Source of the DNA: an uncultured bacterium
GTDB lineage: Bacteria > Actinomycetota > Actinomycetes > S36-B12 > CAIYMF01
Direction: 5' to 3'
Assembly (NCBI GenBank): GCA_903826575.1
Contig: CAIKEU010000101.1
Location: 6,096 to 70,095, forward strand
Length of the DNA: 64,000 nt
Below, in pieces: positions 5,399 to 56,361 of this stretch. The notes beneath the pieces are model-generated. The model did not search any database and was not told the DNA's origin. It saw nothing but the letters and a program-made list of their open reading frames with translations. The translations under genes were made by a program, and so were the position numbers. Position 1 is the first letter of the stretch. Each line of letters opens with the position of its first letter.

Positions 5399-6304
5399 GT
5401 GCCCATGGGAGCGAAGGATCATTCGGTTCTTGGGAAACGATTGGTAAAGCAGCCGTTTCCCGATGTTCTAACGCTCGTTGGCCGTGAATTGGCACAGGCC
5501 GTGCTCGTTGCTGCGCCGTCGGCGCAAGCGGGATCCGATGAGGGAATCCATGTACAGCGCGTGGCGGTTCGACGCCTTCGCAGTCTGATCCGTTGTTGTG
5601 TGCCCGTTCTTCGTAGCTCCGATATTGATGAGTTCGCCGAAGATCTGTCCTGGCTCGGGTCAGCACTTGGTGCGAGGCGCGACGTTGACGTCCTTGAGAA
5701 TCACCTCCGGTCCGCGATCAATGCGCTACCGCTTGATGATCGAAGCGAATCGGCCGCGCGTGTTGATGAGTATGTGCTGAAGCTCTATTCAGCGGCTGAT
5801 GTACGGCTAGGCGAGGTGTTCACTTCGGAACGTTATGCCAACCTCGGTGAGCAGTTGGTGGCTGTTGAACTCGGCGCCTTCGTTCGGGCGGATACCCCGG
5901 TATCGGTTGAGACGGTCGTCGGAGAACTGATTCATGGCTCATGGCGGCGGCTGGCAAAGTCAGTGGATCACATTCACAGCGAATCGGATATCACCGAATG
6001 GCATCGGGTGCGTACAAAGGCCAAGAAGCTCCGCTATGTGGTGGAAGTATTCACCCCAATCTTTGGTAGGGATTATGAACGTCTCGGCCGACGCCTAGCT
6101 GCCGTGACCGACGAACTTGGCGAGCAAAGAGACGCGTACGCCTGCTCCGAAGCGCTGGCCGAAATTGCAGGTAATGTTCCGGGGCACCTAGCGTTTGAGT
6201 TCGGACGGATGGCCTTTATTCAGGAGATTCGGAGCGTCACTGCGGCCGAGGAGTTTCCTGCGCTGTGGCGCAGAGTGCGCAGTAGTTTCGAGTCGGCGGT
6301 CTAG
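5399..6304 (+). CDS. CHAD domain-containing protein
   Basis: IHVQRVAVRRLRS, LGARRDVDV, WHRVRTKAKKLRY and LGEQRD motifs. Confidence 0.88.
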   Translation: MPMGAKDHSVLGKRLVKQPFPDVLTLVGRELAQAVLVAAPSAQAGSDEGIHVQRVAVRRLRSLIRCCVPVLRSSDIDEFAEDLSWLGSALGARRDVDVLENHLRSAINALPLDDRSESAARVDEYVLKLYSAADVRLGEVFTSERYANLGEQLVAVELGAFVRADTPVSVETVVGELIHGSWRRLAKSVDHIHSESDITEWHRVRTKAKKLRYVVEVFTPIFGRDYERLGRRLAAVTDELGEQRDAYACSEALAEIAGNVPGHLAFEFGRMAFIQEIRSVTAAEEFPALWRRVRSSFESAV

Positions 6305-7245
6305 TGCGTCAAGGCTTGAACAGCACGCATTCTCTCGCCGACTAACTGAGCATCGAGTTTAGTGAACTCTTGGCTGTTCATTGAGATAATTTCGTTTTTG
6401 TATCCACTTTCGACTGCGTACCAAATGCCAACTAAATTAGTTTTGTCTCGGCAATGGGCGTCACTGGTGGCAGTGCGAAGCTCGTCAGTCGTGGGAGGTT
6501 CGTCCATCTTCCAGCCCGCATCGTTTGCTTGCCAAGGCGAACTGAATTTAAGCCCAAAGCCGGCCATGCATTCAGACCAAGCCCGCCATGCAACTTGAAC
6601 CCGTTCGTCGTTCTCTGCGAAAGTCGACGCATCGTGACTACGTGAGTTCGCGACCTCGGGGTCAAGTGGGTTCGGACCAACTAACTGAGACCACGCTTGG
6701 GTGTAGCAGCCCCCGTTAGGGAGTGGATTAACATCCCGATCTTTCAGTGCGTCCGCGCCCGGCCCGGTCCCGTACGCTGTCAACTCTTCAAGCGGCGACG
6801 GAGTCCATGCGCTGGACGCCCCCTTGTCGTTGGAACTGCTGGAGGGATCCGCTGCCGCAGGCGCGTGGTAACCGAGAACTTGCGCTTCGGCCAGCGATGC
6901 AATTCCGTAGTGACGACTATTGTCGATTGGAACGGTTGTTATGTTGCCAGAGTTGCTGTTCGCAACCCCGAAACGGTTCTCACATGCGCTAGCTAGAACT
7001 ATGGTTGCGCGGCTCATCAGTAGTTGATCGTCTGGTGAAAGTTCGTATCTGTCCATGGGGTACGTCAGCGCCGACGCGTCGCTGACCCTGGGTGGTGATG
7101 ACGAGATGGTTGGGGGTGCTGGTACAAGGTCGCCTGCCGAAGCGCCCACTTGTCCATTGATCGCAGCAATTCCTGCGCCGGTTGCCATGACTGTGAGGCA
7201 AATCGTGACGGTTGAACTCGAAAAAAATCGTCGGCCGTGTCCCAT
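6301..7245 (-). CDS. Hypothetical exported protein (Streptomyces-type, four Cys in the mature region)
   Basis: N-terminal hydrophobic/signal segment; YPMDRY..AC, GGCY, WSECM and AxSDAHCR pattern; 9 bp downstream of the crystallin-like gene. Confidence 0.6.
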   Translation of the reverse strand: MGHGRRFFSSSTVTICLTVMATGAGIAAINGQVGASAGDLVPAPPTISSSPPRVSDASALTYPMDRYELSPDDQLLMSRATIVLASACENRFGVANSNSGNITTVPIDNSRHYGIASLAEAQVLGYHAPAAADPSSSSNDKGASSAWTPSPLEELTAYGTGPGADALKDRDVNPLPNGGCYTQAWSQLVGPNPLDPEVANSRSHDASTFAENDERVQVAWRAWSECMAGFGLKFSSPWQANDAGWKMDEPPTTDELRTATSDAHCRDKTNLVGIWYAVESGYKNEIISMNSQEFTKLDAQLVGERMRAVQALTH

Positions 7246-7254
7246 ATCATCACC

Positions 7255-7674
7255 TTAAGAAACGTAGAAGGACGAAATTCGGTCGTTCCACCCGGCGGCA
7301 GTCGCATCCCAGCTTGCGCCCATGTCCTTGTAATGAGGACTGCTCGTTGGATAGAAACTGCCACCGTAATTGACGTTCACATATATCTGCACGTCGCAGC
7401 CGTTGAAGTCCTTACCTGAACTTATCTGATCATTCCAAGCGTCCGAGACATACGAGATTGAGTCGTCGTGATCGGTCACCTCTGGCGTGCACGCACCTGT
7501 TCCGACAACCTTGAAAAGACCGCCGGCGAAGCCGGCATGTTCGAAGAATTGAACCCTAGTTAACGAACCGCTGCCAACCGTTCTGTTGGCGACTGCGTTG
7601 GCACTTGTCGAGGTAACGAAAATGGAGGTCAATGCGCTGACAATGGCAATCCCGAAAATTATCGGCGAACGCAT
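7255..7674 (-). CDS. Secreted beta/gamma-crystallin-fold protein (peptidase inhibitor I36-like)
   Basis: Signal peptide ending ANA; two Greek-key repeats FFEHAGFAG...WNDQISS and IYVNVNYGG...WNDRISS; GGAG RBS before ATG 7674. Confidence 0.75.
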   Translation of the reverse strand: MRSPIIFGIAIVSALTSIFVTSTSANAVANRTVGSGSLTRVQFFEHAGFAGGLFKVVGTGACTPEVTDHDDSISYVSDAWNDQISSGKDFNGCDVQIYVNVNYGGSFYPTSSPHYKDMGASWDATAAGWNDRISSFYVS

Positions 7675-7714
7675 ATCATTCTCCAGCAGTCGCGCGGAAG
7701 TTGAACATATCTGA

Positions 7715-7743
7715 TGTATATCCGTATATTTACAACATGTCAA
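7715..7743 (-). promoter_or_regulatory. Sigma70-type promoter for the crystallin-like operon
   Basis: TTGACA (7743-7738), 17-bp spacer, TATACA (7720-7715). The -35 lies within a TGTCA-N8-TGACA inverted repeat. Confidence 0.6.
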
Positions 7744-7869
7744 GAAGGTCTGACAAATAGACACATTCATCGTTAAGTTGCGCAACAAGAGATTATGAGA
7801 AATCTAAAAAGACGTTTTTGCATGCCACTTTTCATCACGTATGAGTAGCGCAGGAATTGGACTCAATGC

Positions 7870-7905
7870 AAAAACTGGCCGACCCCAAAGGGTCGACCAG
7901 TTTTT
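7870..7905 (-). terminator. Intrinsic terminator, identical to the one at 8083-8118
   Basis: AAAAACTGG-CCGACCC-CAAA-GGGTCGA-CCAGTTTTT hairpin. Confidence 0.75.
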
Positions 7906-7973
7906 AGTCGGGGTGGCGGGACCCCGTCGAGGTGCCTGGCGGCACCTCTTCCTCCTCGAATCCCCGGACCCCA

Positions 7974-8012
7974 AAAAAATGATGGCCGGCCCCGTAGGGC
8001 CAGCCATCATTT
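7974..8012 (-). terminator. Intrinsic terminator (variant, middle repeat unit)
   Basis: AAATGATGG...GGCCC-CGTA-GGGCC...CCATCATTT hairpin with a T-run on the minus strand. Confidence 0.72.
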
Positions 8013-8080
8013 AGTCGGGGTGGCGGGACCCGTCGGATCACCTTCGGCGCTCCTCCTCCCGAATCCCACTCAGCTCGATT

Positions 8081-8118
8081 AAAAAAACTGGCCGACCCCA
8101 AAGGGTCGACCAGTTTTT
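8081..8118 (-). terminator. Intrinsic terminator directly after tRNA-Pro
   Basis: Same hairpin as 7870-7905, followed by T7 on the minus strand. Confidence 0.8.
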
Positions 8119-8120
8119 AG

Positions 8121-8194
<74 letters not shown>

Positions 8195-30301: not shown

Positions 30302-32496
30302 GCGCTCAGCAGGCCCTTAACTCGGGCCGCCACTCCTGTCGAGATACCTCGCGAATACGACTGGGTCATGTGGTGTTGGTCGCGGTAAACGACCGTCCCG
30401 TTGTCCGCGACCTCGCGGCATATTCGGCCGGGGCAAACCAGTTCGGTGAAGTCGACGCTCGACGCATTCCCGTGACCAGCGATGGCGGCCTGCTCAGCGC
30501 CAATCAGCGTCTGTTCACGTGCACTCGTCACCCCAACGAACGCACAGGCCGATGAATCCTGCATATGTGCAGACAAGCACTCGGTTCGATCAGAGGGCGC
30601 CCATGGAGTGTCCTGCAGCAGGGCAATTCGCTTCGCTCCTCGCAGATCGCGCAGGAGGGCCGTCGTTCCGGTGGCCCATGCTGCTTGCACGTCGCCATCG
30701 CCCAACTGCTGTCCATGTGCGTCGATGACAGGTGAACCCGAGTTGCTGCCATACCCGCCTGACCGTCCAACGAGGACGAGGTCGACTCCGCCGTTGTCGG
30801 TGAGATTCTTGATCTGATCTAACACAGCTCTGCGCCATGAGTCACAAGCGGTGTAGGCACCGCCCACCTGTCCGTTGTTCACCGATACTTCAACCATCGG
30901 GCAGGCGCTCTTGGTCCATGCGTAAAGTTTCCAGCCGTTGTGTCGCGCGGCGCGCTCGAGCGCAGGAAACCAGTGCTGTGCATGCGAATCGCCGACAAGA
31001 ACAATCGTTTTACTGCCACGCGGATCGCCGAAGAGGCAATCAGTTGCGATTGGGGTGGCAGGGAAGGATTGGTGGCAGTCGCGCATTCCCGTTACGCCGT
31101 CGTTGGACGCGTCTAATGCGCTCATCGCGGGGATGGTGTTAGGAACTGCGGCAAGAACGCTGGGATCAATCGAAGCGCCATCGACGGCTCCGGCCACCTG
31201 CGTGCTTGTGGATGTCAGCGGCCCGGGCAGCGGTGCCATGACAAACAAAATGGGGATTGTCGTGAGCGCAGCACCCAAAACCAAACTTGCATTGGTGCTG
31301 TTTTTGAAAAGGGCCGAGTTCCGCACCGGATCCTCGATGAATCGTGTACTGATGACTGCCATCGCGAACGATGCGAGGACGGCTAGCGCAATCGCCCACC
31401 AAGGTGCTGGAATCGGCTCACCGTCGATCGTGACCTGTGAGGTGAGGCTTCGCGCGAAGGTGAGCAACGGCCAGTGCCACAGATAGAGCGAATAGGAGAT
31501 CAAGCCGATAGCCACGAGTCGTGGTTGGGACAGCAACAGCGGTGTGCCGCCGGTGCGGACTCTGACTCCGGCCATGATGACTAGCGCCGTGCCCAGAACC
31601 GGCACGAGAGCCGCAGTACCGGGATAGGTGGTGGAGTCGTTAAATCGAAGGGCGCTGAAGATGATCAGCCCTAAGCCGAGCCATCCACCAAGCACCGCGG
31701 CGATACGTGGCAGCCGGCTGACACTGCCGGTAAGGGCGGCGAGGCCCGCACCTATGGCTAGTTCCCACGCCCGGGCCTGAAGCCCGTAGTACGACCAACC
31801 AGGCTGACTACCGGTGAGAAGCGCTGACCACAGGAACGAGATCACTCCGACCGTGCCAAGCGCCAGAACTATGCGACGCAACGCAGTTGTATCGAAACGA
31901 TGTGAGCGCGCGACCCCGATTCCGAGGGTGCCAAGGATGAGAATCGGCCAGAGCATGTAGAACTGCTCTTCCACGGCTAACGACCAGTAGTGCAGCAGCG
32001 GACTGGCATTGACTTGCGCGGCGAAGTAGTCAGTGGTCTGCATCGCGAAATGCCAGTTTGCGACGTAAAGCGCCGATGCTACGGCGTCGCCATTAACTCG
32101 CTGTGCTGTGAGCGGCGACATGATTGCGTGCGAAACAAGGATGGTGACTACCAGTACAAGTGCTGATGCGGGAAGAAGTCGACGAGCTCGTCTGGCGTAG
32201 AAGTCACGGATCGAAATCGTTCCGGTGCGGGCAACCTCTTGAAGTAAGAGCCCGGTTATCAGGAAGCCGGAAATGACGAAAAAGACGTCAACCCCGACGT
32301 AGCCGCCGCTAAAAAGCGGGACACCAGCGTGGTACGCGACGACCAGTAGGATGGCGATCGCCCTAAGTCCGTCAATATCCCGACGGTGGACGTTCGGCTG
32401 GCGAGTAGTGGACGTTGATGTGTTCGGTCTTGGGCGCGTCGATTGAACCTGCGGTCGATCGACGCGCAGGTGCTCACGTTCGGGAGCAATCGACAC
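30298..32496 (-). CDS. Acyltransferase-3 + SGNH O-acyltransferase (OafA/OatA-like)
   Basis: DIDGLRAIA, GVDVFFVISG, HYWSLAVEEQFY, GDSHA and YRDQHH motifs. Confidence 0.93.
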   Translation of the reverse strand: MSIAPEREHLRVDRPQVQSTRPRPNTSTSTTRQPNVHRRDIDGLRAIAILLVVAYHAGVPLFSGGYVGVDVFFVISGFLITGLLLQEVARTGTISIRDFYARRARRLLPASALVLVVTILVSHAIMSPLTAQRVNGDAVASALYVANWHFAMQTTDYFAAQVNASPLLHYWSLAVEEQFYMLWPILILGTLGIGVARSHRFDTTALRRIVLALGTVGVISFLWSALLTGSQPGWSYYGLQARAWELAIGAGLAALTGSVSRLPRIAAVLGGWLGLGLIIFSALRFNDSTTYPGTAALVPVLGTALVIMAGVRVRTGGTPLLLSQPRLVAIGLISYSLYLWHWPLLTFARSLTSQVTIDGEPIPAPWWAIALAVLASFAMAVISTRFIEDPVRNSALFKNSTNASLVLGAALTTIPILFVMAPLPGPLTSTSTQVAGAVDGASIDPSVLAAVPNTIPAMSALDASNDGVTGMRDCHQSFPATPIATDCLFGDPRGSKTIVLVGDSHAQHWFPALERAARHNGWKLYAWTKSACPMVEVSVNNGQVGGAYTACDSWRRAVLDQIKNLTDNGGVDLVLVGRSGGYGSNSGSPVIDAHGQQLGDGDVQAAWATGTTALLRDLRGAKRIALLQDTPWAPSDRTECLSAHMQDSSACAFVGVTSAREQTLIGAEQAAIAGHGNASSVDFTELVCPGRICREVADNGTVVYRDQHHMTQSYSRGISTGVAARVKGLLSA

Positions 32497-56285: not shown

Positions 56286-56361
56286 GCCGCCTTAGCTCAG
56301 TCGGTAGAGCGTCTCACTCGTAATGAGAAGGTCAACGGTTCGATTCCGTTAGGCGGCTCCA
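56286..56361 (+). tRNA. tRNA-Thr (CGT)
   Basis: GCCGCCT acceptor stem, anticodon loop CTCGTAA, GGTTCGATTCC T-arm, encoded CCA. Confidence 0.98.

What the first reader, a model, noticed from the sequence alone, without database searches (positions are those of the whole stretch)
7870..8134. Array of three tRNA-Pro 3' ends, each with its own terminator, and structured half-tRNA-like spacers
Seen (minus strand): the tRNA is followed by two more ~107-bp units ending in TCCCGCCACCCCGA-CTA plus a terminator. Terminators 1 and 3 are identical. The middle one differs in sequence but keeps the stem (compensatory-looking changes). Both extra units contain GGGATTCG, resembling the T-arm 5' strand GGGTTCG, then a 31- or 35-nt insert (RGGAGGARGAG...CGACGGG), then the T-arm 3' strand and acceptor strand. 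Each unit therefore looks like a T-arm with an expanded loop. Established: integrases that target tRNA T-loops duplicate exactly this 3' fragment, and E. coli tyrT has downstream repeats carrying tRNA 3' ends. No integrase is in the window. Inference: either stacked att scars from repeated integration, acting as a landing pad or decoy array, or a selected array of small tRNA-like RNAs.
Basis: partly seen in the sequence, partly recalled or inferred. Interest (0 to 1): 0.72.

Follow-up and report, generated by a model that had tools for sequence, protein, structure and literature searches.

The report
Structured repeat units behind tRNA-Pro
The three tRNA-Pro ends are real: the two extra ones belong to a conserved, apparently undescribed family of folded ~100-base units found behind many tRNA and tmRNA genes of actinobacteria, built like E. 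coli's long-known tRNA-linked repeats, and their spare tRNA ends also serve as landing sites for mobile elements.

Summary
On the minus strand, tRNA-Pro(CGG) is followed by two ~107-nt units. Each ends in the tRNA's last 14 nt plus a terminator, and terminators 1 and 3 are identical.

The units are not private scars. A conserved module lies 50-70 nt behind at least 9 other tRNA/tmRNA genes of this genome. It reads local 5' arm, GGAGGAG, variable hairpin, CGACGG-N, then a spare copy of the local tRNA's 3' end. A covariance model finds it in 58 of 101 good genomes of the same order. It matches no Rfam family and is almost absent from phage and viral DNA.

The hairpin covaries strongly.

The "T-arm 5' strand" is a misreading. 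That arm is the reverse complement of the local T-loop 3' half plus the T-stem 3' strand, and it tracks five T-loop variants.

In relatives, and at this genome's tRNA-His, integrative elements sit directly after the spare copy, so it is used as an attachment site.

The closest known thing is the E. coli tRNA-linked repeat family (RtT, RrA/B/F RNAs).

My best reading (about 45%) is a trailer RNA module co-transcribed with the tRNA. The main rival (about 30%) is a gene-less recombination cassette.

The scan has noted similar units in other phyla.

The parts
8121..8194 (-). tRNA-Pro(CGG), with no encoded CCA; T-arm GTGGG-TTCGAAT-CCCGC
8121..8134 (-). Repeat O, copy 0: T60, T-stem 3' strand, acceptor 3' strand and discriminator (TCCCGCCACCCCGA), inside the tRNA
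8081..8118 (-). Terminator A, copy 1 (A5, an 11-bp stem with one T.G, loop TTTG, T7); it reads as a terminator on both strands
8060..8067 (-). Unit 1, 5' arm GGGATTCG: the reverse complement of tRNA positions 56-63 (CGAATCCC)
8053..8059 (-). Unit 1, conserved purine block GGAGGAG. GGAGGA is the 5' side of the internal loop; the last G closes the hairpin
8036..8052 (-). Unit 1, variable hairpin (GAGCGCC-GAA-GGTGATC, imperfect). It is related to the GCGCCGAAGGCGC hairpins inside the longer inserts of congeners
8029..8035 (-). Unit 1, conserved 3' core CGACGG plus N (here G)
8015..8028 (-). Repeat O, copy 1 (spare tRNA 3' end)
7973..8012 (-). Terminator B (12-bp stem with one T.G, loop TACG, T7)
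7957..7965 (-). Unit 2, 5' arm GGGGATTCG
7922..7956 (-). Unit 2, core: AGGAGGAAG, then hairpin AGGTGCC-GCCA-GGCACCT, then CGACGGGG. The covariance model scores it at 33.5 bits
7908..7921 (-). Repeat O, copy 2 (spare tRNA 3' end)
7870..7905 (-). Terminator A, copy 2; stem, loop and A-run identical to copy 1, T-run two bases shorter (T5)

Best explanation
The array is a stack of two 'tRNA-linked repeat' units from a conserved actinobacterial family. A unit consists of a trailer terminator, a short spacer and one long bipartite hairpin. Helix P1 pairs a 5' arm with CGG-N-T plus the first bases of a spare copy of the tRNA's last 14 nt. The 5' arm is the complement of the local T-loop 3' half and T-stem 3' strand. 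An asymmetric purine loop (GGAGGA opposite GA) then leads to a variable hairpin, P2. The rest of the spare acceptor strand hangs free in front of the next terminator.

By analogy with E. coli RtT and RrA/B/F, I infer that the units are transcribed from the tRNA promoter by read-through of the preceding terminator. The tRNA-like 3' end would define or process their 3' end, and the exposed GGAGGA loop would be the working surface; its partner is unknown.

Unit number changes by recombination between the 14-nt repeats. As a side effect, each spare end is a usable attachment site for tRNA-targeting integrases.

Shown here: the anatomy, the family, the covariation, the distribution, and the use of the spare end as an attachment site. 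Inferred: transcription, processing, and any function of the RNA.
For: Family and anatomy: the same core follows tRNA-Ser(tga), Ser(gct), Arg(ccg) (3 units), His, Ala(cgc), Gly(tcc) and tmRNA in this genome. In 131 distinct modules from many genera, CGACGG is present in 131 of 131 and GGAGGAG in 130 of 131.

Position: the core starts 50-70 nt after the tRNA end and is always co-oriented with it.

Structure: P2 is 93% paired, 7 of 8 pairs change on both sides, and 0 of 500 shuffles reach the observed score. Minimum-free-energy folds give P1, the 6+2 loop and P2. The wobbles are specific to the tRNA strand: an invariant U.G in P1 and one T.G in each terminator stem.

Conservation in place: about 14 of 26 congeners keep the module at the orthologous tRNA-Pro locus. 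The insert varies from 17 to about 150 nt while the core ends stay intact, and the spare copy follows the tRNA's T-arm variant. 58 of 101 high-quality genomes of the order carry it, including 11 of 12 genomes of a genus with 1.4-1.8 Mb genomes.

Not phage-borne.

Precedent: E. coli tRNA-linked repeats have the same build and are expressed RNAs (PMC8144298; tyrV/rttR locus).

Identity to the tRNA holds through the discriminator plus one base and then drops (0.95 to 0.62), as expected for a mimic of the tRNA end.
Against: No transcript data could be obtained. No partner protein is evident: the genome has no L7Ae, CsrA or Y1-transposase homologue. The strong terminators in front of each unit would limit read-through. 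Hairpin loops are mostly GNA and GNNA, including the minimal GCGNAGC, which are classic DNA hairpin loops. The 5' arm tracks T-loop positions 57 and 59 of the tRNA gene although its partner inside the module does not, and a pure trailer-RNA model does not require that. The same core and hairpin occur at different genes within one genome, and gene-bearing segments are flanked by modules; both point to a DNA-level process. About a quarter of congeners have lost or truncated the module, so it is dispensable.
Confidence: 0.45

Rival explanations
1. Gene-less recombination cassettes. Core plus spare end would be a recombination site that, folded as single-stranded DNA, imitates the duplex of the tRNA gene at its T-loop/T-stem border. 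This is how integron attC sites and the CTX phage attP imitate their targets. A recombinase encoded elsewhere would insert cassettes (terminator, spacer, site) at any copy of the 14-mer, so cassettes with or without genes stack behind tRNA genes.
For: The 5' arm is an exact complement of the local tRNA gene's positions 56-63 and follows five T-loop variants. The module's own 3' arm stays constant, as expected if the arm must pair with the target strand.

The conserved ends with a variable central hairpin of 5-150 nt resemble attC sites.

The A-B-A order of terminators here and at tRNA-Arg is what insertion of one unit at an internal 14-mer would give.

Segments of 107 bp, 860 bp (with a small possible ribbon-helix-helix gene), 1.3 kb and an integrase-bearing element are all bounded by modules.

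The attL and attR of the tRNA-His element share the core and hairpin, 46 nt with one difference.

An almost identical core and hairpin occur at tmRNA and at tRNA-Ala in G030.

One unit in G004 lacks exactly the stretch from GGAGGAG to the spare end.

The hairpin loops are of the DNA type.
Against: No cognate recombinase was found. Most modules in five well-assembled genomes are far from any integrase, and the two integrase-like genes next to modules are broken. The module is essentially absent from viral contigs and phages. The element family seen using the spare end (next to tRNA-Pro) has an ordinary T-loop attP without the core. Modules persist at orthologous loci and in small genomes. Templated 'quasi-palindrome correction' could make the 5' arm follow the tRNA without any function.
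Confidence: 0.3
2. Passive remnants: ordinary attR/attL scars of decayed integrative elements, multiplied by unequal crossing-over between the 14-nt repeats and kept only because they are harmless.
For: tRNA 3' ends are classic integrase targets, and displaced fragments are common (PMC9897764). Uninterrupted partial tRNA copies from integrated elements lie next to modules in relatives. Perfect tandem arrays could arise by slippage. Modules are lost or truncated in some species.
Against: Random decay would not leave the same 7-nt and 6-nt motifs, a covarying hairpin and the same spacing at more than 15 tRNA types in 21 of 34 genera. Nor would it keep them intact while the neighbouring spacer diverges. 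For example, the tmRNA module core is identical over 33 of 33 nt between two families while the spacer is about 70% identical. The 5' arm's match to the T-loop is also not a feature of a normal attR.
Confidence: 0.1
3. Assembly artefact: the repeat number is inflated or collapsed in a short-read metagenome assembly.
For: The genome has 106 contigs. In the closest relative a contig breaks inside this tRNA.
Against: Units 1 and 2 differ in spacer, hairpin and terminator. Equivalent arrays of 2-4 units are present in many independent assemblies, some with only 1 to 10 contigs.
Confidence: 0.03

Closest known systems
E. coli tRNA-linked repeats (TLRs): RtT RNA of the tyrT/tyrV operon (Rfam RF00391) and RrA/RrB/RrF behind the 5S rRNA genes (Egan & Landy 1978 and Rudd 1999, as cited in PMC8144298; Stenum et al. 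2021, PMC8144298)
   Same: Units lie directly behind a tRNA or rRNA gene and are co-oriented with it. There are 1-5 units per locus. Each ends in a copy of the upstream gene's 3' end that starts in the T-loop, and each sits between terminators. The tyrV unit has hairpin-rich DNA, including GCGAAGC, inserted at the same point of the T-loop. GGA motifs are exposed in RrA/B/F.
   Different: There is no sequence or Rfam match. The E. coli left part, AAGGTTCGA, is a direct copy of the T-stem 5' strand and T-loop. The actinobacterial 5' arm is the reverse complement of the 3' half. The copy is 14 nt without CCA, against 18-19 nt with CCA. The core here is short and conserved across an order and beyond. 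Hfq and CsrA partners are absent (that actinobacteria lack Hfq is from my own knowledge). Expression is shown in E. coli and untested here.
Displaced tRNA fragments (attR) of tyrosine-integrase islands, tandem accretion, and integrase-less cis-mobilisable elements (CIMEs) (Williams 2002 as cited in PMC9897764; CIMEs from my own knowledge)
   Same: Direct repeats of the tRNA 3' segment bound each unit. Spare copies are used as attachment sites in relatives. Each copy is followed by a terminator that could serve the tRNA.
   Different: Units are only about 100 bp and carry no genes. They contain a conserved structured core that is not part of the attP of the integrative element seen using the site. 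They are mostly far from integrases and are conserved in place.
Integron attC sites and the folded attP of CTX phage (my own knowledge)
   Same: Conserved ends around a central hairpin of very variable length. The folded strand would imitate a duplex target site with a few unpaired bases. The result is arrays of short cassettes.
   Different: No IntI-like or dedicated recombinase was found, and the two conserved ends are not complementary to each other. This is only an analogy.
Structured units in spare tRNA-end copies noted earlier by this scan in CPR/Saccharibacteria, Melainabacteria, Clostridia and one actinobacterial group
   Same: A conserved fold lodged at the T-loop of a spare copy of the neighbouring tRNA's 3' end, often in tandem.
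   Different: Different sequences, sizes (88-190 nt) and phyla. Those notes are unverified AI notes.

Membership tests
tRNA-linked repeats (E. coli TLR type) | Unit lies immediately downstream of a tRNA/rRNA gene, on the same strand | tested here: met
   the core starts 50-70 nt after the tRNA end at dozens of loci.
tRNA-linked repeats (E. coli TLR type) | The 3' end of the unit repeats the 3' end of the upstream gene (18-19 bp in E. coli) | tested here: met
   The 14-nt copy is exact here. Across 91 loci identity is 0.90-1.0 through the discriminator plus one base, then drops to 0.62. The copy is shorter because CCA is not encoded.
tRNA-linked repeats (E. coli TLR type) | One to five tandem units per locus | tested here: met
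   Two units here, three at tRNA-Arg(ccg), and 2-4 in relatives.
tRNA-linked repeats (E. coli TLR type) | Sequence or structure homology to RtT (RF00391) | tested here: not met
   No RtT hit even at E up to 10. The left arm is an inverted copy, not a direct one.
tRNA-linked repeats (E. coli TLR type) | Transcribed by terminator read-through and processed to a stable RNA | not testable with these tools
att sites of integrative elements / CIME | Flanked by direct repeats of the target tRNA segment | tested here: met
att sites of integrative elements / CIME | An integrase gene or a recognisable element between or beside the repeats | tested here: not met
   No PF00589 match on the window's contig. 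The units are 107 bp with no open reading frame of note.
att sites of integrative elements / CIME | The matching site is carried by a mobile element (attP) | tested here: inconclusive
   Both ends of the tRNA-His element carry the core. The tRNA-Pro element's attP lacks it, and phage and viral collections lack it.
Integron attC-like folded sites | An integron-type integrase and an attI platform next to the array | tested here: not met
   Only Xer-like and degraded integrases are present in the genome, none near the arrays.
REP/RAYT or IS200/IS605-derived palindromic elements | A Y1 (HUH) transposase in the genome | tested here: not met
   PF01797 is absent from G000, which is 98% complete.
Kink-turn RNA motif | A 3-nt bulge followed by tandem sheared G.A pairs, bound by an L7Ae-family protein | tested here: inconclusive
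   The loop is 6+2 (GGAGGA/GA), so the GA/GA pairs are possible but the bulge would be 4 nt. There is no L7Ae homologue.

The most novel reading that the evidence does not exclude
Behind actinobacterial tRNA genes lies a cassette platform. Each unit's hairpin would be a folded single-strand recombination site whose 5' arm is templated on, or selected to pair with, the T-loop/T-stem of the local tRNA gene. A recombinase acting in trans could then stack terminator-bearing cassettes, with or without genes, at any copy of the tRNA end. This would be an integron-like system anchored on tRNA genes. It could also explain how tRNA-linked repeats arise in E. coli and other phyla.
Probability: 0.2. Interest if true: 0.85.

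Novelty: new variant of a known kind. Interest (0 to 1): 0.62.

Why it matters
tRNA-linked repeats have been known in E. coli since 1978, without an agreed origin or function. In the papers I could search they are described only for enterobacteria.

This work adds a second, sequence-unrelated family with the same overall build. It is present in more than half of the sampled genomes of a large actinobacterial order, including Bifidobacterium, Gordonia and Microbacterium relatives. It has a compact conserved core, clear covariation, and an unexpected rule: the 5' arm mirrors the local T-loop.

That makes the question 'what are tRNA-linked repeats for, and how are they made?' testable in cultivable, genetically tractable bacteria.

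There is also a practical point. The spare tRNA ends are real secondary integration sites, which matters for mapping genomic islands and for integrase-based vectors in actinobacteria.

Tried and rejected
1. Rfam at permissive thresholds gave only the tRNA; the other hits were noise.

2. I looked for a phage or viral attP carrying the module. BLAST of a Gordonia module against 50,697 phages gave nothing useful. A pattern scan of 2.9 million viral contigs gave 1 hit.

3. I looked for integrases beside modules. There are none in the window. In five well-assembled relatives, modules and PF00589 hits do not co-locate, with one exception (G018); there the module belongs to the displaced host side. 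The tRNA-His integrase is truncated. The open reading frames after the G030 module have no integrase domain.

4. I tested whether the unit is an interrupted direct copy of the tRNA from the variable loop onward. Variable-loop similarity is not above chance (1.24 against 1.35).

5. I looked for an acceptor 5' strand that would make a minihelix. It is seen only sporadically (unit 2 here, B. breve tRNA-Ser) and is not general.

6. Possible partner proteins L7Ae and CsrA, and the Y1 transposase, are all absent.

7. I compared G.T with A.C mismatches in P2 to choose the folded strand. The counts were 8 against 5, which is not informative.

8. I looked for an autonomous version with a gene after the Shine-Dalgarno-like GGGAGGAG. 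None exists in this genome.

9. A reverse-transcription origin of the copy does not fit, because the copies lack CCA and follow the gene's trailer base instead.

10. Literature searches for a description in actinobacteria found none. This is a limited open-access search, not proof of absence.

Full report
THE OBSERVATION

On the minus strand, tRNA-Pro(CGG) lies at 8194-8121. It is followed by terminator A (8118-8081). Unit 1 ends in TCCCGCCACCCCGA at 8028-8015 and is followed by terminator B (8012-7973). Unit 2 ends in the same 14-mer at 7921-7908 and is followed by a second copy of terminator A (7905-7870) whose stem and loop match the first exactly.

The 14-mer occurs three times in the window and nowhere else in the 3.0-Mb assembly. 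Tandem Repeats Finder reports period 106, 2.5 copies, score 305.

The exact copy number rests on the assembly, but the two units differ from each other, so this is not a simple collapse or inflation.

IT IS ONE MEMBER OF A FAMILY

A BLAST of the array against the whole genome hit the regions behind tmRNA and tRNA-Arg(ccg).

Reading those loci showed the same module each time. It consists of a short G-rich arm, ATTCG or a variant, GGAGGAG, a hairpin of variable sequence, CGACGG, one free base, and then T plus the T-stem 3' strand, acceptor 3' strand and discriminator of whichever gene lies upstream.

A covariance model built from 44 diverse modules finds 14 copies at 9-10 loci in this genome. 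The loci are Pro(cgg) with 2 copies, Arg(ccg) with 3, tmRNA with 2, Ala(cgc), Ser(tga), Ser(gct), Gly(tcc) and His, plus two fragments.

The other tRNA in the window, Thr(cgt) at 56286-56361, has no module.

DISTRIBUTION

A strict pattern found the module in 33 of 61 relatives.

Almost all are Actinomycetota: Flexivirga, Phycicoccus, Terrabacter, Dermacoccus, Gordonia, Bifidobacterium breve, Microbacterium, Nocardioidaceae and others. In these the core starts 50-70 nt after the end of a tRNA: Ser, Ala, Pro, Arg, Gly, Met, Thr, Trp, Tyr, or tmRNA. The few non-actinobacterial hits have no tRNA nearby and look like chance.

The covariance model hits 58 of 101 high-quality genomes of the order, in 8 of 10 families and 21 of 34 genera. 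There are up to 13 copies per genome and many tandem arrays, with periods of 60-118 nt. One genus with 1.4-1.8 Mb genomes has hits in 11 of 12 genomes; there the terminators are AT-rich but the core is unchanged.

An even sample of 400 genomes from the rest of the class and phylum gave only a handful of carriers. The family is thus concentrated in one order and patchy elsewhere.

It is essentially absent from viral contigs (1 of 2.9 million) and from sequenced phages. It has no Rfam match.

STRUCTURE

The variable hairpin (P2) is 93% paired across 44 diverse modules. Seven of its eight pairs change on both sides. None of 500 shuffles reaches the observed scores, and sliding the partners by 1-3 columns destroys the signal. 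Its length ranges from a five-base insert that forms GCGNAGC up to about 150 nt at the orthologous Pro locus of congeners.

Minimum-free-energy folds of several modules give a second helix, P1: GGGATTCG paired with CGG-N-TCCC. P1 has an invariant U.G wobble and a usually mismatched position. It is separated from P2 by an asymmetric loop, GGAGGA opposite GA. P1 is almost invariant, so covariation cannot test it.

The loop could hold tandem G.A pairs as a kink-turn does. However, the bulge would be 4 nt, not 3, and the genome has no L7Ae homologue. It also has no CsrA that might read the GGA motifs.

THE 5' ARM IS AN INVERTED COPY

It is instead the reverse complement of T-loop positions 56-60 plus the first 3-4 bases of the T-stem 3' strand.

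The arm follows the local T-loop variant:
- TTCGAAT gives ATTCG.
- TTCAAAT gives ATTTG (8 of 11).
- TTCGAGT gives ACTCG (4 of 4).
- TTCGATT gives AATCG (4 of 5).
- TTCGATC gives GATCG (2 of 2).

All five variants occur and obey the rule within this one genome.

At the orthologous tRNA-Pro locus, species whose tRNA has TTCAAAT carry ATTTG or ATGTG. Species with TTCGAAT carry ATTCG.

The arm's partner inside the module is constant (CGG-N-T). Positions 57 and 59 therefore covary with the tRNA gene and not with the module's own 3' arm.

Beyond the stem, the spacer shows no similarity to the tRNA's variable loop.

Either the arm must pair with the tRNA or its gene, or it is repeatedly re-templated on it. 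Quasi-palindrome correction across the terminator is one possible re-templating process.

A fold of the read-through transcript predicts the corresponding strand swap. The tRNA's 56-66 region pairs with the arm, and its 5' acceptor strand pairs with the spare end. This is only a thermodynamic prediction.

RELATION TO INTEGRATIVE ELEMENTS

At the orthologous tRNA-Pro locus of 26 congeners the picture is as follows:
- About 14 have tRNA, terminator, spacer, module and spare end.
- About 4 have a truncated module.
- About 3 have none.
- In G004, G005, G015 and G027 one integrative element family sits directly after the tRNA. It is recognisable by the arm CA.GATCCAGCCGGTGTCTCTGCAGGTCAGAGGCACCGGCTGG and a tyrosine integrase.

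In G002 (the closest relative), in G017, and for a second element in G005, the same element sits directly after the module's spare end instead. The spare end is thus a working attachment site. That element's own attP has a normal T-loop and no core.

In this genome the tRNA-His module is followed by an integrase gene that is truncated. Two further His modules on another contig bound an 860-bp segment carrying a small gene with weak, sub-threshold ribbon-helix-helix similarity.

Most modules in five well-assembled relatives are far from any integrase. Where an integrase is adjacent (G018), the module lies on the displaced host side.

SIGNS OF DNA-LEVEL DYNAMICS

Many arrays are perfect tandem repeats of spare end, trailer, spacer and core.

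In G004 the whole unit is nearly the same behind two different tRNA-Ala genes. In G030 an almost identical core and hairpin sit behind tmRNA and tRNA-Ala(cgc), although the spare ends and spacers differ.

The tmRNA module's core and hairpin are identical in G000 and in a genome of another family, while the spacer is only about 70% identical.

In G002 the left half of unit 1 is replaced by the complement of the right half, giving a long perfect hairpin, within otherwise conserved flanks.

The terminator order A-B-A, seen here and at tRNA-Arg(ccg), is what insertion of one unit at an internal spare end would produce.

CLOSEST KNOWN THING

Stenum et al. 2021 (PMC8144298) describe 22 such repeats at ten loci, one to five per locus. 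Their last 18-19 bp equal the 3' end of the upstream tRNA or rRNA. RrA, RrB and RrF lie between two terminators and are transcribed by read-through. They are processed, and they bind Hfq and CsrA. The authors suggest that the repeated end is an RNase E processing signal.

The tyrV locus of E. coli K-12 is annotated with the small RNA rttR. It shows the same build: AAGGTTCGA, about 60 nt of hairpins including GCGAAGC, then AATCCTTCCCCCACCACCA.

The actinobacterial family differs in four ways. It has no sequence or Rfam similarity. Its copy is 14 nt without CCA. Its core is compact and conserved. Its 5' arm is inverted rather than direct.

VERDICT

The finding is real. It is a member of a widespread family that I could not find described, and it belongs to the same kind as the E. 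coli tRNA-linked repeats.

I rank a co-transcribed structured trailer RNA first, at about 0.45. The reasons are the precedent, the strand-specific wobbles, the terminator after every unit, the conservation in place, and the retention in small genomes.

A gene-less recombination cassette with a folded site comes second, at about 0.3. It explains the T-loop-tracking arm, the module-bounded segments, the sharing of cores between loci and the DNA-type loops. It lacks a recombinase.

Passive scars (about 0.1) and artefact (about 0.03) are unlikely.

The two leading readings are not exclusive: a trailer module could be spread and reshuffled by recombination at its spare tRNA end.

Noticed in passing
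G000 contig C89, about 31040-31115 (locus L211), minus strand: After the tRNA-Gly(tcc) module's spare end come four more tandem 15-nt copies of part of the acceptor strand, CACGCCACCCGCTC(G/C). This is a micro-array of acceptor fragments with no core between them.
   Followed up: no
G000 C31:11803-12447, C45:8050-8299 and C17:3811-4710 (L210): tRNA-His locus. The module is followed by a tyrosine-integrase gene that is split over two contigs and truncated after about 148 aa. Two further His modules without the G-rich arm bound an 860-bp segment with a 106-aa open reading frame that hits DUF6290 and NikA-like (ribbon-helix-helix) families weakly, below cut-off.
   Followed up: partly
window 6301-7870: The DNA just downstream of the array is richer in A+T (GC 0.49-0.52 against about 0.59-0.61). 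Another reader noted that it carries a secreted beta/gamma-crystallin-like gene pair. No further copy of the 14-mer bounds it. In the closest relative an integrase element occupies the equivalent position.
   Followed up: partly
Trailers of tmRNA, tRNA-His, Ala and Gly in G000 (C47, C31, C58, C89) and of many tRNAs in G004, G009, G017, G045 and G027 (L014): The terminator hairpins behind many different tRNA genes and genomes share a conserved centre, (C)CGGGG(T)TGATCCCC(C)GG, inside otherwise locus-specific long stems. The 'terminator' may therefore be a second conserved part of the unit. The tRNA-Pro terminators here do not have this centre.
   Followed up: no
L063 (G021, orthologous tRNA-Pro locus): The module is interrupted after GGGAGGACC by an insertion of about 200 bp bounded by inverted repeats (GGTCAATGTGGCTTTCACT ... 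AGTGAAAGCCACATTGACC). It looks like a miniature transposable element.
   Followed up: no
L046, L050, L054, L055, L017, L059, L068 (G005, G004, G027, G015, G017, G002): One family of integrative elements with a conserved arm sequence and a tyrosine integrase targets tRNA-Pro(CGG) in at least six congeners. It uses either the tRNA's own end or the module's spare end. G005 carries two in tandem.
   Followed up: partly
L197 against L196 (G017), and L190 (G004): Long palindromic trailer hairpins are precisely deleted in some copies; for example ATGA[...]CCTGGG lacks the whole stem-loop. This is typical palindrome instability.
   Followed up: no
L095, L126 and L132 (MAGs labelled Bifidobacterium breve): Arrays of 2-3 modules with periods of only 54-73 nt and no terminator between units. 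In the tRNA-Ser(tga) array the spacer CGCAGCGGAGGC can pair with the acceptor strand.
   Followed up: no
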